Source: Bacteroidaceae bacterium
Lineage (GTDB): Bacteria > Bacteroidota > Bacteroidia > Bacteroidales > Bacteroidaceae
NCBI GenBank assembly: GCA_017448965.1
Contig: JAFSKK010000058.1
Span: 961-64,960, forward strand
DNA length: 64,000 nt
Reading direction: 5' to 3'
Shown here: positions 13,501 through 64,000 of the stretch, piece after piece
Position numbering within the stretch: the first letter of the stretch is position 1
Layout: every line of letters begins with the position of its first letter
Position numbers and translations under genes: made by a program
Notes under the pieces: generated by a model
The model's input: only the letters and a program-made list of their open reading frames with translations
What the model was told of the DNA's origin: nothing
Database searches by the model: none

Positions 13501-14760
13501 TTATCTAATTTTTAATGTAATGATGGTGATGGCGGCCAACAGGATGGTGACAATCCAGAAGCGCGTCGTAATCATCGACTCAAACAACAAACCCTTAGGA
13601 CGCTTGATGAGGTAGGTGACCCCCTCTTCCATCCTGTGACGATAGTGGTCGTGGAACGGCGCACGCTTGAACACACGCCACTTCTTCCCCCGCTTGTTGC
13701 CCTGCTTAGCATAGGCAATCTGGAGCATCACCGAAAGACTTTCCATCAGGAAGATGCCGCACAAGATGGGCAGCAACAGTTCCTTGTGAATGATGACCGC
13801 CGTGACGGCAATGACACCACCGATGGCCAAACTGCCCGTATCGCCCATGAACACCTTAGCAGGATATGCATTATACCAAAGGAAACCGACCAATGCACCC
13901 ACAAAGGCACTAAGGAAGACCACAATCTCCTCTGAGCCTGGAATATACATCACGTTCAGATAGTCGGCAAAACGGATGTGACCGCTCACATAGGCAAGAA
14001 TACCCAACGTGACGCCGATGATGGCAGAGTTGCCTGCACACATACCGTCCATACCATCGTTCAGGTTGGCCCCGTTGCTCACAGCAGCAATGACGAAAGT
14101 GGTCACCAGCACAAAGAGAATCCAGCCACAAGCACGTTTCGTCTTGCCATCCTTGATGAAGCTGAACACCTCGTAATAGTCGATGTTGTTGCTCTTCACG
14201 AAAGGCACCGTTGTCACCGTGCTCTTACGCGCTTCACTCTTATGATACACCTCCACCTTATCGCCAATTTCACGCTCCACATTCTCACGCACCACAGCGT
14301 CAGGACTGAGCCACAACGTCAGGCCTACCGCAACACCAAACACCAACTGCGCCAACATTTTCCATCGTGGCGCAAGACCATCCTTGTTGCCCGACAACTT
14401 GATTTTGTCATCCAGGAATCCGATGACACCAAAGAAGGCAATGGTCACAATCAGCAACACCACGTACACATTATTCAATCTGCCAAACAGCAAAGCCGGC
14501 ACAATCACCGCTGCGAGAATGACGACACCACCCATCGACGGCACACCTTTCTTCTGCACCCCGTATGGGTCGATGGCTGCATCACGAGCCTCCTCAATAT
14601 GCTTCTTCTTTCGCATATACTTAATGAAGTATTCTCCTGCCACCATCGAGATGAACAGCGAAAGAATGAGTGATAGCAAAGCCCGGAAGGACACATAACC
14701 AAACATGCCCGCTCCCGGGATGTCAAACTCTTGCAGATACTTGAATAAGTCGTATAACAT
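13501..14760 (-). CDS. mraY: phospho-N-acetylmuramoyl-pentapeptide transferase
   Basis: 419 aa, polytopic. Has MraY motifs KKGVPSMGG, NLNDGMDG, FMGDTGSLAIGG and HHH-like FHDHY. Confidence 0.95.
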   Translation of the reverse strand: MLYDLFKYLQEFDIPGAGMFGYVSFRALLSLILSLFISMVAGEYFIKYMRKKKHIEEARDAAIDPYGVQKKGVPSMGGVVILAAVIVPALLFGRLNNVYVVLLIVTIAFFGVIGFLDDKIKLSGNKDGLAPRWKMLAQLVFGVAVGLTLWLSPDAVVRENVEREIGDKVEVYHKSEARKSTVTTVPFVKSNNIDYYEVFSFIKDGKTKRACGWILFVLVTTFVIAAVSNGANLNDGMDGMCAGNSAIIGVTLGILAYVSGHIRFADYLNVMYIPGSEEIVVFLSAFVGALVGFLWYNAYPAKVFMGDTGSLAIGGVIAVTAVIIHKELLLPILCGIFLMESLSVMLQIAYAKQGNKRGKKWRVFKRAPFHDHYRHRMEEGVTYLIKRPKGLLFESMITTRFWIVTILLAAITIITLKIR

Positions 14761-14815
14761 GATTCTCTAATCAATATGGTAGTTACTAATCGTCTATGTT
14801 TACCGCCCGTTTCTA

Positions 14816-52576: not shown

Positions 52577-52617
52577 GTCGTGATAGTTTTATTGTTCGTC
52601 AATCTCTTACGGCTGCA

Positions 52618-52625
52618 AAGTTACA
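52618..52625 (-). promoter_or_regulatory. -7 promoter box TAACTTTG for the esterase gene
   Basis: Reverse complement of CAAAGTTA, about 42 nt upstream of the ATG at 52576. Confidence 0.4.
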
Positions 52626-53133
52626 CATCTATTTCGGAACTACCCACGTCAGAGCCACATTTTTTCATCTGGCTTGGGAGATTTGTCCTCATTTCGCCAT
52701 CGTGAGAGATGTATTTGCACTTCTTGTTCACATTGATAGGTGTGCTCTTCGGAAAGGCGATGCTATACGCCTTGTCGAGGGCATTCAGGTTCACCTTCCG
52801 CATGCCGATGCCCAGTTTCACGCAGACGATGGCTCTCAGCAATTCGCGGTGCTTGCGTGGATAGAGTTTCGGCGATGGCAGTTCATCCCATCCGCACACC
52901 TCGTCCTCTTCGTTGAGCACGTTCGATGCCTGAAAGCACACCTCCCAAATGAAGTCATCGTCGGCTTCACTTCCGAACCACGATTGCAGCACACGGCGGA
53001 TGCAGAACCGCCTGTACTGCCCCTTGAAGAGGCGCCTTGTGCGCTCCAGCCGAAGCCAGAGCTGCACAAAGCATTCTTGAGTATTTTGAATATCAATCAT
53101 AGCGGTAGCAAATTTTTCACCTTTCATTTTCAC
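52621..53133 (-). CDS. hypothetical protein (island gene)
   Basis: 170-aa ORF with no recognised domain. The first 11 codons are encoded by the heptamer microsatellite, so MIDIQNT at 53100 is an alternative start. Confidence 0.45.
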   Translation of the reverse strand: MKMKGEKFATAMIDIQNTQECFVQLWLRLERTRRLFKGQYRRFCIRRVLQSWFGSEADDDFIWEVCFQASNVLNEEDEVCGWDELPSPKLYPRKHRELLRAIVCVKLGIGMRKVNLNALDKAYSIAFPKSTPINVNKKCKYISHDGEMRTNLPSQMKKCGSDVGSSEIDV

Positions 53134-53178
53134 TTTTCATTTTTCACTTTTCACTTTTCACCTTTCACTTTTCACTTC
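53113..53178. repeat. heptamer microsatellite, about nine units of (G)TGAAA(A/G) on the minus strand
   Basis: TTTTCACC TTTCAT TTTCAC TTTTCAT TTTTCAC TTTTCAC TTTTCACC TTTCAC TTTTCAC. It lies between the stop of the 766-aa gene and the next ORF. Confidence 0.85.
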
Positions 53179-53180
53179 TT

Positions 53181-55481
53181 CTATACCTTCCCACCGATTT
53201 TCTGTTTGTATTCAGGCGTCTTGCAGAAGCGTCCGCAAACATCATCATAGGCAATGTATCCTCGGTTCTGCCATACTCGCAGGGTGCTTTCACCGTCACC
53301 TTTACGACCTTGCTGCTGGCGCATCTGGTGGTACTGCTCACGGGTGAACTCATCAGGCAGCAACTCCAGCAGGTTCTGAGGTCCCGACTGACGCTGAATC
53401 TCCACTTCCTCGCGAAGTTCACGTTCCAGTTGCTGACCGAAGTAGAGCATCTTGCACCAGAGATTGTACGACTGGCTCCAGCGGACGAAATCGGCAATCT
53501 CGTGCGACCACTTGTAGCCGTGAGCCACGTAGAGCACCATTCCCTTCAGCCAGGCAATCACGTTGGCACGATAGCTCAAAACTCGGTAGGCTTCGCTCTC
53601 ATACAGTCGGGCGGCGTCCTTGTTCTCCTGCTTCATGTCGAGCGACAGACGCTTGGCTTGCTGACATTCTATCAGCCCGTTGGCAGCCTCCAGACGGTCG
53701 ATATAGGGCTTCAGCTCATTGGCAAACAGATGGTCGTAGATGCCCAGGATAGGTGCCGTGTCATCGTCGTCATCTGAATGGATGATGGTGCTGATGTCGA
53801 GTCGGCTCACCGTGCCGTCATTGACCATTCGTGCAAAAAACTTCCTGGCATTGGGAGGGGTCGTCGAGGCGTTAAAATTCCATCTCAGAGGGGCAATTCC
53901 CGACACCGAATCCGCACCTACACGCTCCTGCCCTGCATCGGAGTTGTCAAACGCTTTTCTGATCAGCAACCCCACCTCATCGACCGTTCCCTTCGAGGTC
54001 ACCTTCTTCAAGGCCTCAATCTCGTCCACGATGGTGTAGATGAAACGCTGGCCGTTGTTGTGGGCATCGATGATGCGCTGGTTGAAGACCGCATCTGTCA
54101 GGTTGTCGATGAGCATCTGGATGCAGATGTCTGTCGGACGCGGGGCTTTCTTCTGCTTCGCACCCGGATTCTTCTGCTTCCAATCGGCCTCGCGCTGGCG
54201 GTTGGGGATGTCGCGCTGCTTGATGTCCTCCATGATGTACTCGATGGGCTTCTTGATGGTGCCCTTGCCGATACTCTGACGGCCAATCAAGACATTCATG
54301 AAGGTTGCCTCATGCTCCACGTTGTCCCAGTAGCGGAACTTCACGCCGTGCAGGTGAACACCCAGTGCTGGGAACACCGCATTAGCTACAGCAGGCTTGT
54401 AGAACCAGGGGACGTTCTTCGTCAGCAACTTCACCAGTGGCGGCAACTTCTTCGGCATCGGAGGAGGTGTGGTGAGCGTACCGCCACAAGCCTTCACACC
54501 TGCCTGCGACTTCAATGCCTGCAACACCTGCTTCAATCGGTACGGCATACCCTTCTTCGGCTCCTTCAGCGCGTTCTCGATGGTCTTGCGCCATTCGGCC
54601 ACATCCTCCTGGTTCTGGGTTCCCCAATAGTTCGGAATGATCTGCATCATCTTCTCCAACGAATATCCGCAGATGCTTCTCAGCGTCACAGCCAGCTCGA
54701 ACGTCAGCACATTGCGGTCGCCATCCACAGGCTCCTTGCCGTCGTTGAACAGCTCCCAATACTTCTGAATGATGTCCTTAAACAGCATCCCGTTGTACCT
54801 CGCGTCAGGGTCATAGGGAACCGATGTCAGAGGGCTGATGTTTGATGTCTGAGAGACAGCCTTTTCGGAACTGTAACACTGTAACACTGTAACATTTTCT
54901 GTTTCTCTCATCTCCACAGGTGTTGTATCAAAAATCTCGTCGTCCAGAAACAGCAACTCATCGTCATCAGCAGTCGTTGTGAAGAACACCCTCGTGATGT
55001 CCTTGGCACCCTCGTCGAACTTCACGCCCAGCACGTCGCTTGCCCACCGCAGGTTCTCCTCCTGTGAGAGGTCCTCATGGCGACGGAACACCAGATGGTA
55101 GCCCTTCGATGCCGAACGCTCCAGCATGAGCAACCCCAATGCCTCCCGTTTTTCCATCACGAGTTCTGGCACACACTTCATCTTCTCTTCCATCCAAGCC
55201 TTCTTTTCCTCCTCCGAAAGCCCTGCGGGAGCCACGAAGTCGATATCCATGCCCACCGAACGCGATGCCGTCTTGCACCCCTTCAGGGCACCATCCTCGC
55301 CGGGGATGCACGAGTAGTTCATCTGAATGAGCCGATGCTTCTGCCGGGTGTCGCCCTCTCTCACCGTCTTCAGAATTGCCTTCTGTTTCTCACTGCCACG
55401 CAGACGCAGATACTCGTCTCGTGAGAGGACGGGGCGCATCACCTTCGCCCCATCCTGATATGTTACAAAATATACACTCAT
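53181..55481 (-). CDS. VirE/BT4734-like primase-helicase-type protein
   Basis: 766 aa. The N-terminal roughly 190 aa follow the BT4734/VirE_N pattern (...REGDTRQKHRLIQMNYSC...SRSVGMDIDF). The central region has a P-loop-like LIGRQSIGKGT resembling VirE/D5 NTPases. Confidence 0.5.
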   Translation of the reverse strand: MSVYFVTYQDGAKVMRPVLSRDEYLRLRGSEKQKAILKTVREGDTRQKHRLIQMNYSCIPGEDGALKGCKTASRSVGMDIDFVAPAGLSEEEKKAWMEEKMKCVPELVMEKREALGLLMLERSASKGYHLVFRRHEDLSQEENLRWASDVLGVKFDEGAKDITRVFFTTTADDDELLFLDDEIFDTTPVEMRETENVTVLQCYSSEKAVSQTSNISPLTSVPYDPDARYNGMLFKDIIQKYWELFNDGKEPVDGDRNVLTFELAVTLRSICGYSLEKMMQIIPNYWGTQNQEDVAEWRKTIENALKEPKKGMPYRLKQVLQALKSQAGVKACGGTLTTPPPMPKKLPPLVKLLTKNVPWFYKPAVANAVFPALGVHLHGVKFRYWDNVEHEATFMNVLIGRQSIGKGTIKKPIEYIMEDIKQRDIPNRQREADWKQKNPGAKQKKAPRPTDICIQMLIDNLTDAVFNQRIIDAHNNGQRFIYTIVDEIEALKKVTSKGTVDEVGLLIRKAFDNSDAGQERVGADSVSGIAPLRWNFNASTTPPNARKFFARMVNDGTVSRLDISTIIHSDDDDDTAPILGIYDHLFANELKPYIDRLEAANGLIECQQAKRLSLDMKQENKDAARLYESEAYRVLSYRANVIAWLKGMVLYVAHGYKWSHEIADFVRWSQSYNLWCKMLYFGQQLERELREEVEIQRQSGPQNLLELLPDEFTREQYHQMRQQQGRKGDGESTLRVWQNRGYIAYDDVCGRFCKTPEYKQKIGGKV
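54859..54894. repeat. ACTGTAAC octamer-triplet repeat, copy A (inside the primase-like gene)
   Basis: GCCTTTTCGGAACTGTAACACTGTAACACTGTAACA. It encodes the linker VTVLQCYS and matches 61343-61380 in the same orientation. Confidence 0.9.
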
Positions 55482-55505
55482 ACGTCATTCACAGTTTTAA
55501 GAGTT

Positions 55506-55889
55506 TTACCACTGAGTCTCCGTGCGTCTCGTCTTGATGAACGCTGCCTGTTCCTCCGCTTCCTCCCGATGCAATGCCTCGATGAGAGCCTTGCCCAGTT
55601 TCTTGGGGAATCGCAGCAGGAAAATCACGCTCTCCTGCGTCTCCTTCACCTCGCCATGTGCAGTCGTGAAGAGCCTTGTGTAGCGGCTTCCGCTGTCCTT
55701 CGCATACGGGTGAAAATGGCTTGTTCCCGATTCGTCGGTCACCATCCGTCCCTTCTGACTTGCTTCGTTACCTCCCACCACGATGTGCTGTCCCAACTCG
55801 AACGCACAAGGAAAGATGTTGATGCCACCGTTCTGGCAGAAAACTGTCTGTGTCTCCATCTGGAGATTGTTAATGAAAATGTTGTTCAT
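55506..55889 (-). CDS. hypothetical protein
   Basis: 127-aa ORF, 24 nt upstream of the primase-like gene on the same strand. No recognised domain. Confidence 0.45.
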   Translation of the reverse strand: MNNIFINNLQMETQTVFCQNGGINIFPCAFELGQHIVVGGNEASQKGRMVTDESGTSHFHPYAKDSGSRYTRLFTTAHGEVKETQESVIFLLRFPKKLGKALIEALHREEAEEQAAFIKTRRTETQW

Positions 55890-56130
55890 GTTGTGATACT
55901 TCTAATTTTAATTTGAGAATTAAAAGCATCGTGCGCACGTTGCCGTAGTCAATGAAGATGTGTTTGCAACCACATGCTTCATGTCTGTGAGAGTTTGTCG
56001 GACCATTTCAAACTGATGGCGCAAAAAAACATTGCACCCCCGAAAGTCAGAAGCCATTTGTGTGTGCTTCTTTTCCTTTCGACGGTGCAAAGTTCGGGAG
56101 AATAAAAAATGTGTTTGTTTTAGTAAAACT

Positions 56131-56163
56131 CACAAAAATGTTTTAGTAAAACAACATTTTGTG
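56131..56163 (-). terminator. hairpin terminator at the end of the R-M-linked operon
   Basis: CACAAAAATGTT / AACATTTTGTG stem, 3 nt after the stop at 56167, with a U-containing tail on the minus strand. Confidence 0.45.
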
Positions 56164-56166
56164 AAA

Positions 56167-57015
56167 TCAGTCGTTTTGGGGTAGATTTTCCAATAGTTCA
56201 TCAAAATAATCCTGTATGTCCGATTTGTTTCGTTTATATGCGGCATTCAATAATTGTCCCACATTCGTTTCCTTTTTATTGAAAGCATACCGCATAATTT
56301 GTTTAATGGTCTTTTCTTTGTTTTTTACAGGTTTGCCTTTTCTGTCAACAAACCATTTTGCTTTATACATACAATCGAGCACCACAAGCATGGATGTTTC
56401 TTTGCCATCCGCTATTTTCAAATCAGCGGTTTCAACTCTGGGAGAAGAATCCAGAAGAGACACCTTACCATTGTCCACAGCATTTTCAACCATCTCTTCA
56501 ATCGTATCAGACAAAAACACATCACTCTGTATGTATTCTATAACAACGGCTCTCAATTTCTCTTCGCCTAAACGATAGACATTAGGCATGAATGTATTCC
56601 TCAATTCTTCCATACAGGCATCATGCTCATCCATCTGTTCCATTAGGCACAAAGCAAGGGTGTTATGTAAAGACTTTTTTGTCACAATCAGACACATGGA
56701 AACACAATACATCACCACATTCACAGCAAGAGCCAGTTCCTTTTCTTCTGTTCCATCATCTGACAGATCTCTAAAATCATTGTACATTCTGTCCCAAAGA
56801 TTTCCCATGTTGAAAACAGCCTTGCTCTCATCTTCCTTGATGTCATCAAGAACGGCAAGACACTCCATAAAAACCTCCTCTGCAGAAAGGCGGAACTTTG
56901 CCATCTTTCTACAGAAATGCTCGCAGGGATTCTTCAGGGAAAGATAGATGACATGCTCGCCATATTCATTTCTGACCGCCTCTCTTGCGCTTCTTCTTAG
57001 TCGGTTCCTCATCAT
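56167..57015 (-). CDS. hypothetical protein (operon gene 5, no recognisable domain)
   Basis: 282-aa ORF that overlaps gene 4 by 50 nt. An alternative ATG at 56904 (MAKFRL, 246 aa) would leave a 61-nt gap. No P-loop or nuclease motif seen. Confidence 0.55.
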   Translation of the reverse strand: MMRNRLRRSAREAVRNEYGEHVIYLSLKNPCEHFCRKMAKFRLSAEEVFMECLAVLDDIKEDESKAVFNMGNLWDRMYNDFRDLSDDGTEEKELALAVNVVMYCVSMCLIVTKKSLHNTLALCLMEQMDEHDACMEELRNTFMPNVYRLGEEKLRAVVIEYIQSDVFLSDTIEEMVENAVDNGKVSLLDSSPRVETADLKIADGKETSMLVVLDCMYKAKWFVDRKGKPVKNKEKTIKQIMRYAFNKKETNVGQLLNAAYKRNKSDIQDYFDELLENLPQND

Positions 57016-57940
57016 TGTATGTTTCTGTTATATGCCTCACGCTTTCCAACCATTGCATGATGGAAAAATCCCCTCTGTCCGTTTTCGTTCCAAAGGAAGT
57101 TTGACCAGAGATAAATTCCTTCAACATTTCGTCGCCCAAAGTCACCATGGCCTTCGTCTCCTGCCCGTGACGATACACTCCATACATGCGGAAATGCACG
57201 GCAATGTTATATCCGTTGTCACAACACAAATTCACCATCTGAGCCATATCTTCCTGTGTCCTGTCCAAATGCAAAGTGCCATCCTTCGATGCCTCAAAAT
57301 GCATTCCTGCTTTCTTCGCCCTGAAAGCCTTAGCCAAATAGTGCATCATCTCCAGACGTTTCTGCACATCGTCTGGGTCATCGACCGATTTCACCTTTTC
57401 GGAATCGGGGAAATCAAACACCACCTTCCTGACGGTATCGCCAAATTCCGTCTGCTTGCCGACTGCATCCCAGAAATCCTCGGCATTCATCTTGGCCTTC
57501 AACTCAAGGTGAATCCCGTAGTCATGTTCCAAAGTGCTGTTGAAAGATTCCTGCAAGATGTCACGCACCTTGTCGGGCTTGCTGTCGAAAGCCGCAGAAC
57601 GCTCGATGGCAATCAAACCGACATCAGCACGGTTATAAACCAACACATAACAGCCTGGCTGAGCCTTTTCCGTCAGTTCCTCATGCTTCTTGGGAATTTT
57701 CACATTCTTCTCATTGCAGACAAATAGAGCCATTGCGTCCCCATACTTCCGTTCCACATCACATTCCAGCGGCACCTGTTCACCCTTCCTGTTCGTCTTG
57801 CACACCTTCACATTGCCTCCAACAAACAGTGTGGAGAAATATTCATGCGCCTTGTCAATGGTCTTCACACCATCCTTGCCAAACACATCTTTCTGTCCAG
57901 CCTGTTCAAAATGAATTTTGTAAATTGCAAATACCGCCAT
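56966..57940 (-). CDS. hypothetical protein (operon gene 4, no recognisable domain, basic KKKRKRGGQK tail)
   Basis: 324-aa ORF starting 4 nt after the stop of the HpaII-family gene. No known motif recognised. Confidence 0.6.
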   Translation of the reverse strand: MAVFAIYKIHFEQAGQKDVFGKDGVKTIDKAHEYFSTLFVGGNVKVCKTNRKGEQVPLECDVERKYGDAMALFVCNEKNVKIPKKHEELTEKAQPGCYVLVYNRADVGLIAIERSAAFDSKPDKVRDILQESFNSTLEHDYGIHLELKAKMNAEDFWDAVGKQTEFGDTVRKVVFDFPDSEKVKSVDDPDDVQKRLEMMHYLAKAFRAKKAGMHFEASKDGTLHLDRTQEDMAQMVNLCCDNGYNIAVHFRMYGVYRHGQETKAMVTLGDEMLKEFISGQTSFGTKTDRGDFSIMQWLESVRHITETYNDEEPTKKKRKRGGQK

Positions 57941-57944
57941 ATAC

Positions 57945-59027
57945 CTATTTCTTAAACCTTATCTGCAAGTTCAACTTAATATATACCTCACCGTCTTCTC
58001 CTCGATACAAAGCCCCGAAATGGTAACGGCTGCGACTCGCGCGCTCAAAACGCGTATTATTATATAAATAATCTTCCACTTCGTTCCGATTGTAAAAATG
58101 ATAGCAAACGATGTCGCCATCCTTTTTCACAACCAAATAGCCACCATTGGCATCATAACGTCCAGTCCATTCCTTTGCCGGTGTCATACCTAGAGCAGCA
58201 TCTAGCAAAAGTACTTTCATCTTGTGCTCATAAAAAGTATAGACATTCTTTCCTGTAAATCCAAAGGGATTCTGTTTTGCCACCAGTTCTACTGCTTCTT
58301 TGATAGAAGATGTGGATGCTGGCATACTGTCGCAAATCAGACACATTGCAATGAATTCAGGCATACATAAATCGAGAAAAAGCAGATTATTCTTGAAAGT
58401 TTGATGTTCTATGTCTGAATACATCAACTGTAATCCCTTATCTTGGATTTTCTTCATCCTCGGAAGATGGTCTTCTATCGCATTAACTTCCCGTATCTCA
58501 TCGTCCGTTATCTGTCCTCCCTCTACACGATAGCGAATATTCGTTGTTTCTCCAGCATTGAGCAGAGTTGAAGCACTCCCCAATTGTGACTTTATGCTGA
58601 AACCAAGCAAGGGAGTCATATTTGTGCGTAAATCGTGGATAACAATGTGGATGTCCGCTTTGTCTTTCGAAGGGGCTTTCAGTTTTGTACACCCAATTTG
58701 GTTCATGAAACACTCTGTAGCGGGAATTGCAAAAGCACTTTTACTCCCTGCCTTTATCTCGTCAAGCAAGTTGGCTGATTCTTTCATGAACTTATCCATT
58801 GACACACGAACAAACTCTTTGCCATCTTCATCCACCACAACTATGTTCTGCTCACTGCAAGGCTTGTACTCATATTTTTTACTTTCTTCACGAATCACAT
58901 TCAAGATGGGATAATATAATTCCAACTTGTTAAGATTCTCGTCTCCAGCATGGACTTTTCCTTCTCCGAGGAGTCGGAACAATGTGTAAATCTCACTCCA
59001 TTCTCCTTTATTTCCTGTCAATGACAT
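57945..59027 (-). CDS. HpaII-family type II restriction endonuclease (putative)
   Basis: 360 aa. The N-terminal GNKGEWSEIYTLFRLLGEGK motif and the size match my memory of the RE_HpaII family. It also has a PD...SxK-like site (DIHIVIHD...GFSIKSQ) and sits next to a C5-MTase. Confidence 0.55.
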   Translation of the reverse strand: MSLTGNKGEWSEIYTLFRLLGEGKVHAGDENLNKLELYYPILNVIREESKKYEYKPCSEQNIVVVDEDGKEFVRVSMDKFMKESANLLDEIKAGSKSAFAIPATECFMNQIGCTKLKAPSKDKADIHIVIHDLRTNMTPLLGFSIKSQLGSASTLLNAGETTNIRYRVEGGQITDDEIREVNAIEDHLPRMKKIQDKGLQLMYSDIEHQTFKNNLLFLDLCMPEFIAMCLICDSMPASTSSIKEAVELVAKQNPFGFTGKNVYTFYEHKMKVLLLDAALGMTPAKEWTGRYDANGGYLVVKKDGDIVCYHFYNRNEVEDYLYNNTRFERASRSRYHFGALYRGEDGEVYIKLNLQIRFKK

Positions 59028-59075
59028 ATCTTTCCATCCTATTTTCTAAGAGTTATGACTAATTTATCGTTATGG

Positions 59076-59714
59076 CTACTGGAATTTGTCCATTTTCTTA
59101 TCCTTTGGGGTAGGATGAATGTTTACCAGATTTCCCTCCACAACATCAATCTTTGTAGACTCGCAGAACTTCATACTTTTCAATTTTGTGACGAGTTCAT
59201 CTATCTGTTTTGTGTTACAATCAATCACATCATCAAGACCGATAAGCAGACCTTCCGGGATTTTGGCTTTTGTGGCCCTTGCTTCTTGGGCATCCAATGT
59301 CAACAGATAACTTTGTGCCTTGCGATGAACATATTTCAATGCAATGGCTTCAAGGTCAGCCTGCTTGTATCTTTCACGAAGGCTTGTCTTTAGGGATAGA
59401 CATACAGGCCGTTCTTTCGAATAAAGAATGGTGTCAAACTCTATATTGGGAACAAAAGCCACTTTTGCCTGTGTGTAAAACGGCAGGATTCCCTCACGGT
59501 ATAGAAGAGTGTATATCACTAATTCGAAATAACCTCCCCCAATTGAATTGTTTTTATTTTCACATGCTTGATATTTGTCCCAATAAAATTTCACGTATTC
59601 ATGGGGATAAGTGTATTTGACATCGCAAAATGTCTCATTGGGAGTCATACTCTCAAAGAGTTTTGAGATTTCACCTTCATTTTTGATAAAACCGTTTTCT
59701 AATAGTACCGACAT
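59076..59714 (-). CDS. small PD-(D/E)XK nuclease with the SxK-x3-RER signature of CCGG-family restriction enzymes (putative)
   Basis: 212 aa from MSVLLENG (ATG at 59714, 11 nt after the MTase stop). Motif: EFD-x14-SLK-TSL-RER. The ORF-track start at 59870 would overlap the MTase by 145 nt. Confidence 0.5.
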   Translation of the reverse strand: MSVLLENGFIKNEGEISKLFESMTPNETFCDVKYTYPHEYVKFYWDKYQACENKNNSIGGGYFELVIYTLLYREGILPFYTQAKVAFVPNIEFDTILYSKERPVCLSLKTSLRERYKQADLEAIALKYVHRKAQSYLLTLDAQEARATKAKIPEGLLIGLDDVIDCNTKQIDELVTKLKSMKFCESTKIDVVEGNLVNIHPTPKDKKMDKFQ

Positions 59715-59725
59715 AACCTTTGTGT

Positions 59726-61042
59726 TTATAAAATCCCTAACATTTGTAATTCTCTCTCCGCTGTTGCTTGTATAGCTGGAATAGCCACAGAATTGCCAAA
59801 CTGCTTGTAAGCAGAAGCATCGGCCACAACAATTCTGAATCTGTCGGGAAATCCCTGCAATCTGGCCCATTCACGGGGAGTCATTTTACGAATTCCGTCA
59901 CGATTAACCTCGCCCTTGATATGAGTCTCTGGTACATAATTAGTCAGACGATTATCCACCACCAAATTGCACTCTCTCCCCATTCCTCCAACAACAATAG
60001 CATTTGCCACTCCATCAATATCAATAATCTTGTATCCAAAACCATGCCCAGCCGCTTCATGTCGTGCGCGATGACGTTTCAAAGTTTCAATATACACTGT
60101 AGAAAGATAATATTTCACCGAAACCTCGTGTTCTTCCATCACATCACGGAAACGTGGGCGTAATGCGCCAGGTGTAGTAGGCTCCGGATAACGAAATTCA
60201 TCAATGGCAACATGCAAGTCCTTTCTGAAACCAATGATATAAATACGTTCACGATGCTGAGGCACCCCAAAATCCATCGCGTTCAAAATCCGAGGAGGTA
60301 CAACATCATATCCTGCATCATCCAAATGCTCAAGGATTGTCCTCAGCGTTCTGCCTTTGTCATGAATGGCCAATCCTTTCACATTTTCAAGAAAGAAAGC
60401 CCTCGGCTGATGCTTCCGCAAAATATCTTCAATCTCAAAAAACAGCGTTCCCCTAGTCTCATCCTTAAAGCCGAGCCTTCTGCCAGCCAAAGAAAACGCC
60501 TGACAAGGAAAGCCAGCACAAAGGATGTCAAAATGCTCTGGAATATACTTTTTCGTGATGTCCTTCGTGATGTCACCAAAGGGCATCTCCCCATAGTTGG
60601 CAAAATATGACTCCTGTGCCTTTGCGTCAAATTCCGAAGAATACACGCACTTGCCACCCAGATTCTGCATGGCGATACGAAAACCTCCAATGCCTGCAAA
60701 CAAATCAATGAAAGTGAACTTAGGGTGCTCGGGAGCAGGGAATGGAACATCGAAGAAATCGTTGAACAAATCATATTGCAAAGGGTCTTCTGCCACATGC
60801 CACACATCCTCGTCAGAAGCCACATCCACAACATCCTGCCGCACATGTTTCCTTGCCAAAAAGTCACGGACAGCTTCTACAATCTCTCCACGCTCAGCAT
60901 CAGTCCCCCCATTATGCAGATACTGGCTCAGCACCGCCATCTGCGTTTCATAGGACAATTCTCCATACACCTTCATGCCCGTTGCCTCATCCACCTCTTC
61001 AGGGAAATCCGTCAATTTTATGTTTTCTTTCTTCTTTGCCAT
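59726..61042 (-). CDS. DNA (cytosine-5)-methyltransferase with about 100-aa N-terminal extension
   Basis: Motif I FIDLFAGIGGF, motif IV GFPCQAFS, motif VI ENVKGL, motif VIII QHRERIYI, motif X QFGNSVAIP. Confidence 0.93.
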   Translation of the reverse strand: MAKKKENIKLTDFPEEVDEATGMKVYGELSYETQMAVLSQYLHNGGTDAERGEIVEAVRDFLARKHVRQDVVDVASDEDVWHVAEDPLQYDLFNDFFDVPFPAPEHPKFTFIDLFAGIGGFRIAMQNLGGKCVYSSEFDAKAQESYFANYGEMPFGDITKDITKKYIPEHFDILCAGFPCQAFSLAGRRLGFKDETRGTLFFEIEDILRKHQPRAFFLENVKGLAIHDKGRTLRTILEHLDDAGYDVVPPRILNAMDFGVPQHRERIYIIGFRKDLHVAIDEFRYPEPTTPGALRPRFRDVMEEHEVSVKYYLSTVYIETLKRHRARHEAAGHGFGYKIIDIDGVANAIVVGGMGRECNLVVDNRLTNYVPETHIKGEVNRDGIRKMTPREWARLQGFPDRFRIVVADASAYKQFGNSVAIPAIQATAERELQMLGIL

Positions 61043-61065
61043 TTTGCAATAGTCTATTTGAGTTG

Positions 61066-61073
61066 CAAATTTA
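61066..61073 (-). promoter_or_regulatory. -7 promoter box TAAATTTG for the methyltransferase operon
   Basis: Reverse complement of CAAATTTA, about 24 nt upstream of the ATG at 61042. Confidence 0.5.
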
Positions 61074-61158
61074 CAATTTTTCTGTGAGATTTAGAAGAAA
61101 GCCCACAGAAAATATAAATTATTTAATAGAAACGCTTGGGCTTTTGTTTGCAAATGTC

Positions 61159-61223
61159 TATCTTTGCATCGGGATTCCCCGAAGTCCCTGCTTTCGCATA
61201 CTTCGGGGTTAGTGTTTTATTTT
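61159..61223 (+). ncRNA. candidate tiny transcript: -7 box TATCTTTG, 9-bp hairpin, U-rich tail
   Basis: -7 box at 61159-61166. Hairpin CCCCGAAGT (61177-85) / ACTTCGGGG (61200-08), followed by TTAGTGTTTTATTTT. Confidence 0.3.
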
Positions 61224-61235
61224 GAGTAAGGCAAC

Positions 61236-61270
61236 ACCGTGTTACAGCGTTACAGTGTTACAGTTCCAAA
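61236..61270. repeat. ACTGTAAC octamer-triplet repeat, copy B (inverted)
   Basis: CACCGTGTTACAGCGTTACAGTGTTACAGTTCC is the reverse complement of GGAACTGTAACACTGTAACGCTGTAACACGGTG. Confidence 0.9.
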
Positions 61271-61342
61271 AACAATCATGGAAGGCAAAAATAAACTCTA
61301 TATTTATATATAAATATAGAAGTATATTTAGGGGTTTGGAAA

Positions 61343-61380
61343 GGCCTTTCGGGAACTGTAACACTGTAACAAGTGTAACA
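61343..61380. repeat. ACTGTAAC octamer-triplet repeat, copy C
   Basis: GGCCTTTCGGGAACTGTAACACTGTAACAAGTGTAACA. With copy B it forms an inverted pair around an 85-bp AT-rich spacer containing CTATATTTATATATAAATATAG. Confidence 0.9.
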
Positions 61381-61468
61381 GATTGCGGTCAACTTCTTCA
61401 GTACAATTTTTTTTCAAATCGTTGAAACTTTTTTGGGGAAATATTCGTAGACCGCACTCTGGATGTTG

Positions 61469-61476
61469 TACCTTTG
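61469..61476 (+). promoter_or_regulatory. -7 promoter box TACCTTTG for the plus-strand G-rich unit
   Basis: TAnnTTTG match about 210 nt upstream of the ATG at 61689. Confidence 0.4.
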
Positions 61477-61688
61477 CATCGTCGAAAATGAGAGGGGCGC
61501 GGAGACGGTGTGCAGGGGGAAGGGTGCACGGCATGCACGGGGAAGCCTGCACGGCACACGCGGAGAGGCGGTGACGGGGTGAGCGATGGAGTGAGAATGG
61601 TTGGATGTGTGGAGTGAGAATGGGTTCGAAAATGTTGTTTAATCAGAAAAAGGAATTTAATCAGAAAAACGGAAAGGAGGACGGAAAG

Positions 61689-62189
61689 ATGAAGATACGG
61701 ATGTCGAGGTATTATGGCGACGGGAGCGTGACGAAGTCGGTCATGCGGATTGAGAGCGAGCGGGGCGGTTTCGAGCCGATGGAGTGCGAGGCGCGGGAGA
61801 TGGCTTTCAAGGTGTACACGGAGAAGTTCAGGGGCAGCAGCGGGTATTGTGTGCCGGAGGGGACTTACACGATGCAGCCGAGGTGCACGGAGTTTGGGGT
61901 GATGACGCTGCGCACGAAGGACATGAGGGGGCATGCGAACGTGAGCATCGGATGGAGCTGGACGAGGCAGACGAAGCATGACACCATTCTGGTGGGATGG
62001 AGCGACGGGAGCCAGGCGGCTGAGGTGAGGCGCATCACGGGGAGCAGGGAGTGCTTCGACGAGCTGACGAAGAGGGTGTATGCGGCTTGGGCGGATGGCG
62101 AGGAGTTCACGCTGGAGATTGTGAATGAAGACCCTCTCTGTCCTGACGGACATCTCCCCCATAATGGGGAGACCATGCGGAATGTTTAA
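61689..62189 (+). CDS. hypothetical protein, possibly DUF5675-like (phage L,D-peptidase-like fold)
   Basis: 166 aa from MKIRMSRYYG. It loosely matches the pattern T.S...IE....F...E......G.CVPEGTY.......F.......T.....H..V.IG.......T.ILVG. It has strongly G-ending codons, and its last roughly 18 codons are encoded by a family B repeat fragment. Confidence 0.4.
   Translation: MKIRMSRYYGDGSVTKSVMRIESERGGFEPMECEAREMAFKVYTEKFRGSSGYCVPEGTYTMQPRCTEFGVMTLRTKDMRGHANVSIGWSWTRQTKHDTILVGWSDGSQAAEVRRITGSRECFDELTKRVYAAWADGEEFTLEIVNEDPLCPDGHLPHNGETMRNV
62130..62180. repeat. partial family B element (half copy of the etfB/etfA insert)
   Basis: GACCCTCTCTGTCCTGACGGACATCTCCCCCATAATGGGGAGACCATGCGG compared with the reverse complement of 28723-28773, GACCCTCTCTGTCCTTCGGACATCTCCCCCGTAATGGGGAGAGCCATCCGG. 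Confidence 0.8.
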
Positions 62190-62275
62190 AAGGAAAAATA
62201 TATGTTGTTGCAACGGCTATATAAGTGTTTAAAAATGAATGTCTAACAAGTTTTAAAAAGAAAGGAGAAACGATT

Positions 62276-62713
62276 ATGTCTATTGTAGTTCGAAAGACGA
62301 AGATGAAGCTCACTTATCGTGAGGGAAAGCCCGAGGTGTACAAGATGCGCCAGCTGACTTACCAGCCGCTCACGTTCGAGCAGTTGCTGTCGGAGATTCA
62401 GGTGGTGGGTGTGAATCCCGCGCAGACGCAGGCGGTGGTGACTGCCTTGCTGAACCGAATGGTGCAGTATCTGAACCTCGGCCACGCGGTGCAGCTCGAC
62501 AACTTCGGCACCTTCAAGGTGTGCACCAAGTGGAAGGTGGCTCACACGCTGGAGGAGTGTACGGCTGACACGAACGTGGTGAAGAACCTCCGCTTCTACC
62601 CCTGCAAGGCGCTGCAGACGTTGCTGCGCGAGCAGACCATCAAGGTGAACGAGGCGGTGTCGGAGCAGGAGCCTGACAGCGGCGGTGGCGACGATGACGG
62701 CGACGGTGAGTAA
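62276..62713 (+). CDS. Bacteroidales HU-related DNA-binding protein with acidic tail
   Basis: 145 aa from MSIVVRKTKMKL, with AAGGAG 9 nt upstream. The pattern ...LTFEQLLSEI......QTQAVVTALLNRMVQYLNLGHAVQLDNFGTFKV matches the HU_rel family. Confidence 0.75.
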   Translation: MSIVVRKTKMKLTYREGKPEVYKMRQLTYQPLTFEQLLSEIQVVGVNPAQTQAVVTALLNRMVQYLNLGHAVQLDNFGTFKVCTKWKVAHTLEECTADTNVVKNLRFYPCKALQTLLREQTIKVNEAVSEQEPDSGGGDDDGDGE

Positions 62714-62719
62714 ATGAAG

Positions 62720-62756
62720 AGAGGGCTGACATCCGCAATGGTGCCAGCCCTCTTTA
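62720..62756. terminator. hairpin between convergent HU and gldN
   Basis: AGAGGGCTG / CAGCCCTCT stem with a 16-nt loop. The T-run is weak. Confidence 0.4.
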
Positions 62757-62791
62757 TGCTTGTGTGTGTGGGGGGGAGAAGTGGAAGAGCA

Positions 62792-63874
62792 TTAGTGGCG
62801 CTGTCTTCTGACAGACACACGGGGAGCGCCGCCACCGCTGGATGCACCACCTCCCGACTTTCCCTTCTTGCCCGAAGAGGCGGAGGAACCACGGCGGCTG
62901 GTGCGTGCGGCTGATGAGGAGGCTTTATCGGCAACGGACTTGCTCTTCTTGCCCTTGACCGATGCTGCGGCGATGGAGTCGCGACGTGCCTGCTCGACGG
63001 AATCGACGGGAGTGCTCCAGATGTGCTCTTCGAAGTCGGTGATCTGCTTCTCGATGCGGTTCTGCTCCTTCTTCAGCAGGGAGTCGGTGGCGCAGTATTG
63101 CTGGAGCGACTTGTTCTGCATGTTGGTAGTCATGTAGATTTCGCCCTTGTAGTGGTTGGTGGAGAAGAAATCATCCATCGACATGCGAGCTGCATTGTTG
63201 AGGTTGCTGGTCATCACTTCCTGGCCGCTGAGATAGGTCTTGACATCGTCGTATTTCACCCAGAAGAGAGGACGCTTCTGCACGTTGTCGGAGTAGGAGA
63301 ACTCGTCGGCTGCACGATGCAGCACAGGGCAAAGCGCCACGATGCGGCTATGGTAGGTGGCCGTGTTCTGGTCGTAGTAGCTGCTTTCCTTCACATAGTA
63401 ACTGAGCACTTCGGAAGAGGGTATGTCGCTCTGAGCCACCTTGATGCTGTTGCCATCCACCTCGTAGAAGATGTCCTGACGCTCCAACAAGTCCTTGAAG
63501 TGCATGCGGTTGCTCTGCTGGAAGTTTTCCACACCATCCAACTGATACTCGTAGGCAGGGATTTTGCCCGTGTTGAGCAGCTTGAACAGCAACGTGAACA
63601 GGTTCATGTTGCCGCCTTGTGGCTCGACGGGATAGTAGAGTGCCGCGTTCTCGTCCTTGGTCAGGTCGATGGAGCGGTAGATGTCGCGTCGCCAACTGGG
63701 GTCTTCAGGCACATCGACTGCCGTGGGGAACATGAGACTGGCTCTGTCGTTTCCTGTCGCACCTGTCTTCTTCGCAGCCGTTGTCTTTGTGTTCTGCACT
63801 CGGCTCTTCTGTGGCTGGGCAACCATCGTGCCAACCATGCAGAATGATAATAATATGAATAAAACCTTTTTCAT
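62792..63874 (-). CDS. gldN: T9SS/gliding motility protein GldN (PorN)
   Basis: 360 aa with a signal peptide. Has the pattern PSWRRDIYRSIDL...NAALYYP...NLFTLLFKLL..GKIPAYEY, a low-complexity C-terminus, and directly follows the gldM end. Confidence 0.85.
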   Translation of the reverse strand: MKKVLFILLSFCMVGTMVAQPQKSRVQNTKTTAAKKTGATGNDRASLMFPTAVDVPEDPSWRRDIYRSIDLTKDENAALYYPVEPQGGNMNLFTLLFKLLNTGKIPAYEYQLDGVENFQQSNRMHFKDLLERQDIFYEVDGNSIKVAQSDIPSSEVLSYYVKESSYYDQNTATYHSRIVALCPVLHRAADEFSYSDNVQKRPLFWVKYDDVKTYLSGQEVMTSNLNNAARMSMDDFFSTNHYKGEIYMTTNMQNKSLQQYCATDSLLKKEQNRIEKQITDFEEHIWSTPVDSVEQARRDSIAAASVKGKKSKSVADKASSSAARTSRRGSSASSGKKGKSGGGASSGGGAPRVSVRRQRH

Positions 63875-63881
63875 AATCTGA

Positions 63882-64000
63882 CTAATTTATGATGACCTCC
63901 ACTGGGGATGTCAATGTTCTTTCTATGCCATCGGGGCCAACCACACGGATGCGGCTGATGTTGAAGAGTTTGCCACGTGTGAGTGAACGGATGCGGTTGA
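63882..64000 (-). CDS. gldM: C-terminal end of GldM (PorM), rest outside window
   Basis: Hand translation gives ...NRIRSLTRGKLFNISRIRVVGPDGIERTLTSPVEVIIN-stop (TAG at 63882-63884). It lies 7 nt upstream of gldN, the standard gldLMN order. Confidence 0.6.
   Translation of the reverse strand, partial: NRIRSLTRGKLFNISRIRVVGPDGIERTLTSPVEVIIN

What the first reader, a model, noticed from the sequence alone, without database searches (positions are those of the whole stretch)
56131..61073. AT-rich five-gene operon: one C5-methyltransferase, two unrelated nucleases and two domain-less proteins
On the minus strand, a TAAATTTG -7 box (61066-61073) is followed by five same-strand ORFs running from 61042 down to 56167. 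They are separated by gaps of 11, 48 and 4 nt and one 50-nt overlap, and the run ends at a hairpin (56131-56163). The block is visibly more AT-rich than the flanking glycan and T9SS genes; I did not compute exact GC content.

Gene 1 has all C5-MTase motifs. Genes 2 and 3 are two different PD-(D/E)XK-type nucleases. Genes 4 and 5 match nothing I can recognise. A plain type II R-M system needs only two of these five genes. The operon therefore looks like an R-M core extended by an uncharacterised module, and it is the best candidate here for an undescribed defence system.
Basis: partly seen in the sequence, partly recalled or inferred. Interest (0 to 1): 0.8.

Follow-up and report, generated by a model that had tools for sequence, protein, structure and literature searches.

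The report
Restriction cassette plus unknown gene pair
This AT-rich five-gene block is an ordinary CCGG-type restriction-modification cassette (one methylase, two nucleases) followed by a conserved, uncharacterised two-gene module; that module also sits behind many unrelated restriction systems in small primase-carrying islands of Prevotella-like bacteria, so it is a candidate new defence-associated module, not part of the restriction enzyme machinery.

Summary
Five minus-strand ORFs have the stated spacings and lie in a GC trough. A TAAATTTG box sits 31 nt before the first ATG, and two weak terminator-like hairpins follow the last gene.

- **Genes 1-3.** These form a type II R-M cassette: a C5-MTase, a small CCGG-family PD-(D/E)XK nuclease (K-x3-R-E-R motif) and an HpaII-family nuclease. 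CCGG is depleted in the window (O/E 0.29).
- **Genes 4-5.** They have no family, no PADLOC hit and no PDB fold match. They are an obligate, co-evolving pair with overlapping reading frames.
- **Independence from this R-M.** Relatives of the pair follow type I, II and III, LlaJI-like, AIPR and RloB cassettes. 13 of 16 informative contexts have defence genes directly upstream.
- **Location.** The pair lies between an iteron-type origin and a BT4734_N/DUF3987 primase-helicase gene, in about 10-kb Prevotellaceae islands. That interval is a variable cargo hotspot. Only 1 of 39 sister islands carries the pair, and the pair's GC matches cargo.

Verdict: the block is R-M cargo plus a separable, undescribed, probably defence-related two-gene cassette. 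Its function is untested.

The parts
61066..61073 (-). Bacteroidetes-type -7 box TAAATTTG, candidate promoter of the block
   Evidence: Read directly from the sequence. It is one of only 3 TAnnTTTG motifs on this strand in 55400-61450 and the only one placed just upstream (31 nt) of a gene start. Function is not tested.
59726..61042 (-). g1: C5 cytosine DNA methyltransferase (438 aa; about 108-aa N-terminal extension plus MTase domain), presumed CCGG-specific
   Evidence: Pfam PF00145 4e-94; TIGR00675 7e-90; PADLOC MTase_II 3e-111. NCBI names it 'DNA cytosine methyltransferase'. The CCGG specificity is inferred from its two partner nucleases and from CCGG depletion.
59076..59714 (-). g2: small CCGG-family PD-(D/E)XK restriction endonuclease (212 aa)
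   Evidence: Weak Pfam RE_BsaWI hit (9e-4, 19.7 bits, below the 26.2 cut-off) over residues 104-149. That stretch holds K109-x3-R113-E114-R115 followed by D120/E122. This is the same spacing as BsaWI K165/R169-D170-R171/D175, the family's catalytic Lys plus CCGG-reading R-(D/E)R motif (PMC4652773). 90%-identical homologues are the only nuclease next to a C5-MTase in L102-L105. A 43%-identical homologue overlaps a C5-MTase gene on a Desemzia plasmid.
57945..59027 (-). g3: HpaII-family type II restriction endonuclease (360 aa)
   Evidence: Pfam RE_HpaII 1e-131, full length; PADLOC REase_II 2e-84. NCBI names it 'HpaII family restriction endonuclease'.
56966..57940 (-). g4: conserved protein of unknown function (324 aa; beta-rich N-terminal part plus alpha/beta C-terminal part; basic KKRKR tail)
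   Evidence: No hit in Pfam, NCBIfam, PHROGs or PADLOC. Profile search finds 735 clusters at E<=1e-3 and 175 at <=1e-30. AF2 model has pLDDT 75.8 and pTM 0.72. No PDB fold match (best E 0.04) and no PDB sequence match. Four uncharacterised metagenomic phage proteins match in BFVD (E 8e-13 to 5e-7).
56167..57015 (-). g5: fast-evolving partner of g4 (282 aa; helical N-domain 1-181, small C-terminal domain 206-277)
   Evidence: No family hit. AF2 model has pLDDT 78 and pTM 0.64. No PDB fold match (best E 1.0) and no PDB sequence match. A g5 homologue follows a g4 homologue in 15 of 17 loci, with a 26-92 nt overlap. Pairwise identities of the two proteins correlate (r = 0.83), with mean identity 27% for g5 against 45% for g4.
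56131..56163 (-). AT-rich imperfect hairpin just after the g5 stop codon
   Evidence: -9.7 kcal/mol, z -1.9. Weak, with no clear U tract.
56036..56054 (-). Second terminator-like stem followed by U7
   Evidence: Found by the terminator scan. -8.3 kcal/mol, z -1.8. It lies inside the stretch that is 99-100% identical to L009/L011.
61240..61371 (.). Origin-like site bounding the cargo region: two inverted arrays of 3 x octamer CTGTAACA flanking a 74-bp AT-rich spacer
   Evidence: 5 matches in the window against 0.08 expected. The same layout, with different octamers, occurs in L009, L012, L016 and sister islands.
54859..54894 (.). Third iteron array (same octamer), inside the primase-helicase gene in the linker at about aa 196-207
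   Evidence: The equivalent array sits at aa ~196-219 of the primase-like gene in L030, L039, L045 and L053.
53181..55481 (-). Island backbone: 766-aa primase-helicase-like protein (BT4734_N/DUF3987 family by homology)
   Evidence: No direct Pfam hit. It is 39% identical to the L002 protein that carries BT4734-like_N. Of 14 aligned homologues, 3 hit DUF3987, 2 hit BT4734-like_N and 1 hits Prim-Pol weakly. 511 metagenomic relatives were found.
55506..55889 (-). Island backbone: conserved 127-aa ORF between the cargo and the primase gene
   Evidence: Homologues are present in L018 (93% identity), L103 (78%) and L091 (53%). No family hit.

Best explanation
The five genes are two separable cargo cassettes, transcribed in the same direction. 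They lie in the variable hotspot of a roughly 10-kb Prevotellaceae genomic island that appears to replicate like satellite phage P4.

(1) Genes 1-3 are a type II R-M system that most likely targets CCGG. One C5-methyltransferase protects host CCGG sites. Two unrelated nucleases cut unmethylated incoming DNA: a minimal CCGG-family PD-(D/E)XK enzyme that reads CCGG with an R-E-R motif, and an HpaII-family enzyme.

(2) Genes 4-5 are an autonomous two-gene module with overlapping reading frames (likely translationally coupled), with no known relatives. My best guess is that it is a defence-type module that travels with restriction systems, not a subunit of them. In that guess the fast-evolving g5 (helical domain plus a variable small C-terminal domain) would be the sensing or specificity partner. 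The conserved g4 (near-invariant D102, R104, D231, Y244; basic tail) would be the effector acting on nucleic acid.

Shown: gene identities for g1 and g3; the g2 motif and its pairing with a methylase; modularity; context; co-evolution of the pair. Inferred: CCGG specificity; a single transcript; any defence role; the division of labour between g4 and g5.
For: **R-M part.**
- Family hits are strong for g1 and g3.
- g2 carries the K-x3-R-E-R motif, matching BsaWI.
- M+g2 occurs as a two-gene R-M in L102-L105 and on a Firmicutes plasmid.
- CCGG O/E is 0.29, the third-lowest 4-mer palindrome in the window.

**Modularity.**
- Window versus L012: 77-79% nucleotide identity starts at the g4 start codon (57934) and runs through g5, the 127-aa ORF, the primase gene and the next ORF. 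The R-M is replaced by C5-MTase + SacI.
- Window versus L009/L011: the whole five-gene block is 99-100% identical, while the adjacent backbone is 64-92% identical.

**Pair.** A g5 homologue follows a g4 homologue with a 26-92 nt overlap in 15 of 17 loci, and identities correlate at r = 0.83.

**Context.** 13 of 16 informative g4-g5 contexts have restriction or abortive-infection genes immediately upstream on the same strand. These include type I (L005, L100), type II (window, L001, L002, L003, L012, L103), type III-like (L091), LlaJI-like (L016), an MTase-S fusion plus PDC-S14 (L013), AIPR (L003) and AAA_21+RloB (L007).

**Cargo, not backbone.**
- Only 1 of 39 sister islands with a 72-88% identical primase carries a g4-like gene.
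- g4/g5 GC is 5-20 points below the adjacent primase gene in 10 of 10 loci.
- The sister-island cargo region holds DpnII, TdeIII, GmrSD, MTases, WYL and Fic.

**Island.** Iteron arrays bound the cargo region.
Against: - There is no functional data and no recognisable catalytic or sensor domain in g4 or g5. Neither is in PADLOC 2.0, even when 69 diverse members are scanned.
- Guilt by association is confounded, because the pair sits in a hotspot that is already rich in defence genes. My enrichment estimate against sister islands is rough: 13/16 against at most about 8-10/26, Fisher p 0.004-0.01. The two sets were annotated with different sensitivity.
- In 10 contexts, including members only about 26% identical, the pair is followed within 5 kb by the primase-helicase gene. 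That also fits an island life-cycle function.
- The pair was not found on any phage or plasmid record or in IMG/VR.
- The CCGG specificity of g1 and g2 and co-transcription of all five genes are untested.
Confidence: 0.5

Rival explanations
1. g4-g5 is a restriction-linked back-up ('guard') module. It would function together with whatever restriction system lies upstream, for example by sensing anti-restriction proteins or failed restriction and then triggering abortive infection. The analogies are PrrC in the EcoprrI locus and PARIS sensing Ocr.
For: The pair sits directly 3' of the restriction genes, co-oriented, with short gaps (4-64 nt in most loci), behind R-M systems of every type. 11 of 16 contexts are R-M specifically. 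The five-gene block recently moved as one unit.
Against: Three contexts (L017, L098, L107) have no recognisable restriction genes upstream. The M+g2 R-M occurs with no g4-like gene after it in L105. Co-orientation and tight packing are general features of the whole cargo region in sister islands. There is no homology to PrrC, RloC or AriA/B.
Confidence: 0.2
2. g4-g5 is an optional life-cycle module of the primase island. It might regulate replication or induction, interact with a helper phage, or help acquire cargo. On this view it is not an immune system.
For: The arrangement g4-like, overlapping partner, small ORFs, BT4734_N/DUF3987 primase-helicase persists down to about 26% identity (window, L001, L002, L005, L012, L016, L017, L091, L103, L106). 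In L012 the pair has diverged exactly as much as the backbone. L017 has the pair and a primase but no defence genes. Four uncultured phage proteins share the g4 fold.
Against: 38 of 39 close sister islands lack the pair. Its GC matches cargo, not backbone. It was exchanged together with the R-M between diverged backbones. L003 has the pair with no primase gene within 7 kb downstream.
Confidence: 0.2
3. One reading: all five proteins form one integrated, extended R-M-derived defence system.
For: Tight spacing, a single upstream -7 box, terminator-like hairpins only after g5, and 99-100% identity of the whole block across three chromosomal contexts.
Against: The g4-g5 pair occurs behind at least 11 unrelated cassettes. 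The break in homology with L012 falls at the g4 start. The MTases next to g4-g5 in other loci are only 26-30% identical to g1, and their nucleases are unrelated. M+g2 functions as a stand-alone pair elsewhere.
Confidence: 0.05

Closest known systems
HpaII-type (CCGG) type II restriction-modification systems
   Same: A C5-MTase lies adjacent to a full-length HpaII-family endonuclease (Pfam 1e-131). The host DNA is depleted in CCGG.
   Different: A second, unrelated nuclease (g2) sits between M and R. The MTase has an N-terminal extension of about 108 aa. Specificity has not been measured.
CCGG-family PD-(D/E)XK endonucleases (BsaWI, NgoMIV, Cfr10I, Bse634I; PMC4652773)
   Same: g2 has the catalytic Lys followed at +4 to +6 by a continuous R-E-R, as in BsaWI (K165, R169-D170-R171), with acidic residues at +11 and +13. 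It is paired with a C5-MTase.
   Different: It scores below the Pfam gathering threshold (19.7 against 26.2 bits) and has no PDB sequence match. At 212 aa it is shorter than BsaWI (272 aa), with shorter spacing between the acidic residues and the Lys.
Defence hotspots of P4-like satellites and P2 prophages (Rousset et al. 2022, PMC9122126)
   Same: A small element with a primase-helicase and repeated octamer iterons at two separated sites. I recall P4 ori/crr being bound by the alpha protein; this is from memory and was not checked here. A bounded, highly variable, co-oriented cargo region is filled with R-M and other defence genes.
   Different: The host is Bacteroidota. The replication protein is BT4734_N (AEP-like)/DUF3987, not P4 alpha. 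No integrase, cos site or capsid-remodelling genes were found in the island. Mobility and helper dependence are unknown.
Restriction-linked accessory genes (PrrC in the EcoprrI locus; rlo genes RloA/B/C in type I loci) and PARIS (AriA/AriB)
   Same: These are non-R-M genes that recur next to restriction cassettes, or in satellite hotspots, as a second line of defence. This is a conceptual analogy recalled from the literature.
   Different: g4 and g5 have no sequence, domain or fold similarity to them: no ABC ATPase, TOPRIM or anticodon-nuclease domains. No trigger is known.

Membership tests
Type II restriction-modification system | DNA methyltransferase with the full catalytic domain | tested here: met
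   PF00145 4e-94 over profile positions 1-321 of 324; TIGR00675 7e-90.
Type II restriction-modification system | Adjacent cognate restriction endonuclease | tested here: met
   g3 matches RE_HpaII at 1e-131. g2 is the sole nuclease beside a C5-MTase in L102-L105 and on NZ_CP126129.1.
Type II restriction-modification system | Methylase and nuclease(s) share one recognition sequence (CCGG) | tested here: inconclusive
   Indirect only: HpaII family membership, the g2 R-E-R motif, and CCGG O/E of 0.29. No methylome or cleavage data are available.
CCGG-family PD-(D/E)XK endonucleases (for g2) | Significant match to a family profile | tested here: not met
   RE_BsaWI scores 19.7 bits against a cut-off of 26.2. 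No PDB sequence hit.
CCGG-family PD-(D/E)XK endonucleases (for g2) | Catalytic Lys followed by the R-(D/E)R CCGG-reading motif and a downstream acidic residue | tested here: met
   K109, R113-E114-R115, D120/E122 read from the sequence. The spacing equals that of BsaWI K165/R169-D170-R171/D175.
Any described anti-phage defence system (for g4-g5) | Match to a model of a known or candidate defence protein | tested here: not met
   PADLOC 2.0 gives 0 hits for the window's g4 and g5. Across 69 diverse g4 members there are only scattered single hits at E 8e-4 to 7e-3. DefenseFinder was not available.
Any described anti-phage defence system (for g4-g5) | Experimentally shown protection against phage or plasmid | not testable with these tools
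   Needs cloning and challenge experiments.
P4-like satellite / replicative island with a defence hotspot | Primase-helicase replication protein | tested here: inconclusive
   The window protein has no direct Pfam hit. Homologues hit DUF3987 (3 of 14), BT4734-like_N (2 of 14) and Prim-Pol weakly (1 of 14).
P4-like satellite / replicative island with a defence hotspot | Repeated iterons at an origin and at a second distant site, specific to each element | tested here: met
   three arrays per island, and the octamer differs between islands.
P4-like satellite / replicative island with a defence hotspot | Variable cargo region enriched in defence genes between conserved flanks | tested here: met
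P4-like satellite / replicative island with a defence hotspot | Integrase and att sites; helper-dependent packaging | tested here: not met
   No integrase family was found among the island ORFs scanned with Pfam. No flanking direct repeats were found in the window. Packaging is not testable here.

The most novel reading that the evidence does not exclude
g4-g5 founds a new, fairly large family (about 735 clusters at 50% identity) of two-protein immune modules built from folds with no solved relatives. The module would specifically accompany restriction systems of all types in Bacteroidota islands and act as a generic second line, for example by sensing restriction failure or anti-restriction. 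In parallel, the iteron-bounded primase islands would be a previously undescribed Bacteroidota counterpart of P4-type defence-hotspot satellites.
Probability: 0.3. Interest if true: 0.75.

Novelty: new variant of a known kind. Interest (0 to 1): 0.55.

Why it matters
Prevotellaceae dominate rumen and many gut communities, yet their defence repertoire is mostly inferred from models built in Proteobacteria and Firmicutes. This locus provides three things:
- A concrete, cloneable candidate: two genes, about 1.8 kb, with no known domains, recurring behind restriction systems of every type.
- A way to find more candidates: the interval between the island's iteron origin and its primase gene is a bounded cargo hotspot present in hundreds of metagenomic contigs.
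- An unusual one-methylase, two-nuclease CCGG R-M.

If g4-g5 is immune, it adds new protein folds to bacterial immunity. If it serves the island instead, it helps explain how these unannotated islands, common next to Bacteroidales polysaccharide loci, replicate or move.

Tried and rejected
- **Family searches for g4 and g5.** Pfam, NCBIfam, PHROGs and PADLOC gave nothing. PADLOC on 69 diverse g4 members gave only scattered single borderline hits, which I treat as noise.
- **Structure.** AF2 models of both proteins are usable (pTM 0.72 and 0.64). Foldseek against the PDB found nothing: best E 0.04 for g4 and 1.0 for g5, with TM below 0.2. Weak START/helix-grip-like and T-fold rows were considered and rejected because they fall far below any threshold. 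Profile searches against PDB sequences were empty for g4, g5 and g2.
- **'g4-g5 is island backbone'.** I held this view. I rejected it once 38 of 39 sister islands proved to lack the pair and its GC matched cargo.
- **Phage or plasmid origin.** No tblastn hit for g4 or g5 in 50,697 phage records, none for g4 in 72,556 plasmid records (g5 was not searched there), and none for g4 in IMG/VR.
- **Rfam.** Nothing in 52000-64000.
- **Island ends.** I looked for terminal repeats like the 38-nt inverted repeat of L009. None is present in the window.
- **Literature.** Searches found no description of this pair or of these islands.
- **First homology search.** The word-index search gave only 34 clusters for g4 and 13 for g5. 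That made the family look rarer than it is; the exhaustive profile search corrected this for g4.

Full report
**1. Observation**

ORF listing confirms five minus-strand ORFs at the stated coordinates, with gaps of 11, 48 and 4 nt and a 50-nt overlap. Identical gene calls appear on public contigs carrying the same block. Sliding-window GC falls to 0.37-0.49 across 55750-61500, against 0.50-0.58 on both flanks. The block is 42.6% GC and the rest of the window 50.3%.

TAAATTTG lies at 61073->61066, 31 nt before the g1 ATG. Only three TAnnTTTG motifs occur on this strand in 6 kb, about the chance number, so the position is suggestive but the count is not.

The hairpin after g5 is real but weak (-9.7 kcal/mol, z -1.9). 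A second stem followed by U7 lies at 56036-56054. The flanks are chromosomal: GH115 enzymes and an esterase on one side and GldN on the other.

**2. Genes 1-3 are a restriction-modification cassette**

- g1 is a C5-MTase (PF00145 4e-94; TIGR00675 7e-90).
- g3 is a full-length HpaII-family endonuclease (1e-131).
- g2 has only a sub-threshold RE_BsaWI hit (9e-4) and no PDB sequence match.

The region of g2 that matches RE_BsaWI reads LSLK109-TSL-R113-E114-R115-YKQAD120-LE122. In the CCGG family the catalytic Lys is followed by the R-(D/E)R motif that reads CCGG. In BsaWI these are K165 and R169-D170-R171, followed by D175 (PMC4652773). The spacing in g2 is the same.

Independent support comes from context. 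90%-identical g2 homologues form a two-gene unit with a C5-MTase, without any HpaII gene, in L102-L105. A 43%-identical homologue overlaps a C5-MTase gene on a Desemzia incerta plasmid.

CCGG is the third most depleted 4-mer palindrome in the window (45 observed against 156 expected, O/E 0.29). This fits long exposure to CCGG restriction. I therefore read genes 1-3 as one methylase serving two unrelated CCGG-directed nucleases. Specificity is inferred, not measured.

**3. Genes 4-5 are an obligate pair with no known relatives**

- Neither protein matches Pfam, NCBIfam, PHROGs or PADLOC.
- The word-index search found few relatives: 34 clusters for g4 and 13 for g5.
- The exhaustive profile search found 735 clusters for g4 at E<=1e-3 and 175 at <=1e-30.
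- In GTDB species representatives only six loci were recovered, all Prevotellaceae or Bacteroidales MAGs. NCBI labels the source a Bacteroidaceae bacterium MAG.
- In 15 of 17 loci a g5 homologue follows the g4 homologue with a 26-92 nt overlap. Pairwise identities correlate (r = 0.83). g5 evolves faster: mean identity is 27%, against 45% for g4.
- The AF2 models are usable: g4 has pLDDT 75.8 and pTM 0.72; g5 has pLDDT 78 and pTM 0.64.
- Foldseek against the PDB finds nothing, with best E of 0.04 for g4 and 1.0 for g5. PDB profile searches are also empty.
- In BFVD, g4 matches four uncharacterised proteins of uncultured tailed phages (E 8e-13 to 5e-7, TM 0.31-0.48).
- Across 69 diverse g4 members, M1, P95, R104 and F250 are invariant. 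D102, W157, D231 and Y244 are nearly so. In the closer subfamily the C-terminus is a conserved DEEPTxKKRKR tail.

**4. The pair is not tied to this R-M**

I collected 16 informative contexts of g4-like genes. Thirteen have restriction or abortive-infection genes immediately upstream on the same strand:

| Context | Upstream genes |
|---|---|
| Window, L008-L011 | This CCGG cassette |
| L001 | C5-MTase + type II REase |
| L002, L015 | Two C5-MTases + BpuJI_N/NOV_C |
| L003, L004 | AIPR + C5-MTase + 199-aa protein |
| L005, L006 | AAA_15 + type I HsdM/S/R |
| L007 | AAA_21 + RloB |
| L012 | C5-MTase + SacI |
| L013 | PDC-S14/DUF4357 + N6-MTase-S fusion |
| L014 | Fic, truncated C5-MTase, SLFN_AlbA_2 ATPase (ambiguous as a defence gene) |
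| L016 | C5-MTase + AAA_5 + LlaJI-like |
| L091 | Type III-like Res |
| L100 | Type I HsdR |
| L103 | C5-MTase + g2 |

Three contexts (L017, L098, L107) show nothing recognisable upstream. The MTases next to the pair in other loci are only 26-30% identical to g1, and their nucleases are unrelated.

Nucleotide comparison gives the sharpest evidence. Against L012, homology (77-79%) begins at 57934, which is the g4 start. It continues through g5, the 127-aa ORF, the 766-aa gene and the next ORF, while the R-M is different. Against L009 and L011, which lie in other chromosomal contexts, the whole five-gene block from the g1 ATG to about 55900 is 99-100% identical, but the backbone beyond it is 64-92% identical. 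Recombination breakpoints therefore occur on both sides of g4-g5, so it is a separable cassette. The present five-gene combination has recently spread as a unit.

**5. The setting is a replicative island with a cargo hotspot**

The island spans roughly 52,600-62,750. On the + strand it has an HU-HIG gene and a DUF5675 gene. Then comes an origin-like site at 61240-61371, formed by two inverted arrays of three CTGTAACA octamers around a 74-bp AT-rich spacer. The cargo operon follows, then a 127-aa ORF and a 766-aa protein. A third CTGTAACA array lies inside that gene, at 54859-54894 (5 matches against 0.08 expected).

The 766-aa protein has no direct Pfam hit. It is 39% identical to a BT4734-like_N protein, and its homologues hit DUF3987 and weakly Prim-Pol.

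The three-array layout recurs with a different octamer in each island: TGTTGCAG in L009, GCTACAG in L012, TGCCACA in L016, and likewise in L030, L039, L045 and L053. This is what is expected of iterons bound by each island's own replication protein. It resembles P4 ori/crr plus the alpha protein, a resemblance I recall from memory and did not check here.

A metagenome scan with the 766-aa protein found 511 relatives. Among the 39 loci with at least 2.5 kb of upstream sequence, only one (L091) has a g4-like gene. The equivalent interval in the others is highly variable. It holds Bro-N/ANT antirepressors (about half of loci) and various R-M and other defence-type genes: DpnII with a D12 MTase, TdeIII, N6_N4 MTases, a C5-MTase, GmrSD, WYL, Fic and others.

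g4 and g5 are 5-20 GC points below the adjacent primase gene in 10 of 10 loci, like the upstream cargo. So g4-g5 is optional cargo in a defence hotspot, not island backbone.

**6. Interpretation**

The R-M part is ordinary in kind, a new member with an unusual second nuclease. For g4-g5 I weigh three readings.

- **Autonomous, undescribed defence-type cassette (favoured).** It behaves as circulating cargo, it is a co-evolving two-protein unit with one fast-evolving partner, and it keeps company with immune genes.
- **Restriction-linked guard.** The pair's persistent position directly behind restriction systems of every type keeps this model alive.
- **Island life-cycle role.** The pair's persistent proximity to the primase gene, even at about 26% identity (L106), keeps this model alive.

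A rough comparison gives 13/16 contexts with defence genes for the pair, against at most 8-10/26 for pair-free sister islands (Fisher p 0.004-0.01). The two sets were not annotated with equal sensitivity, so this is only suggestive. Nothing here tests function.

**7. Novelty and score**

No paper in the library describes the pair or these islands. The nearest concept is the P2/P4 defence hotspots (PMC9122126). I rate the finding a new variant of a known kind: defence-hotspot cargo containing an undescribed gene pair. Interest is 0.55. The candidate is well defined and testable, and the island architecture is a useful discovery handle. However, candidates supported only by guilt by association are common, and there is no mechanistic clue yet.

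Noticed in passing
window 61240-61371 and 54859-54894; L009 6657-6789 and 13048-13092; L012 1-152 and 6236-6267; L016 472-638 and 13032-13069: Each island has three arrays of an 8-bp iteron. Two inverted arrays flank an AT-rich spacer upstream of the cargo, and one lies inside or at the end of the primase-helicase gene. The octamer differs between islands but is the same at all three sites of one island. This suggests an ori/crr-like replication system and a neat way to delimit the cargo hotspot.
   Followed up: partly
window 53114-53178: Nine tandem copies of the heptamer GTGAAAA/GTGAAAG lie between the stop of the 766-aa gene and the next ORF. In L009 the same repeat plus TTTGCTACCGCA forms a 38-nt inverted repeat at both island ends (5091-5128 and 14740-14777). 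No second copy is present in the window.
   Followed up: partly
window 61170-61206 (minus strand): A strong GC-rich stem-loop (-19.5 kcal/mol, z -3.7, 0 of 200 shuffles as good) lies between the iteron origin and the g1 promoter box. On the + strand it is followed by a T-rich run. Its role is unknown and there is no Rfam match.
   Followed up: no
whole window: GATC is even more depleted than CCGG (47 observed against 294 expected, O/E 0.16). This points to a history of GATC-specific restriction in this lineage. DpnII plus D12-MTase cassettes occur in sister islands (for example L018 and L105).
   Followed up: no
L008 (= window), L009/L010, L011: The same island type, carrying the identical five-gene block, sits in at least three chromosomal contexts: GldN/GH115, a capsule-type glycosyltransferase locus, and a Peptidase_M15/LRR region. 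No integrase is present. L081 carries two primase islands 8 kb apart. How these islands move or duplicate is unexplained.
   Followed up: partly
window 61605-62189 (+) and 62225-62713 (+): DUF5675-like and HU-HIG genes are transcribed divergently from the cargo operon. Both recur at island edges in L003, L005, L009, L018 and L102-L104. They seem to be conserved island genes of unknown role.
   Followed up: no
L103 7690-9590; L091 3110-4827: Very distant g4-like proteins (311 and 295 aa; E 2e-26 and 6e-34 to the g4 profile) are followed by helical partners (320 and 276 aa). These partners abut g4 without a long overlap and are not detected by the g5 profile. The partner may have been replaced in these lineages.
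   Followed up: partly
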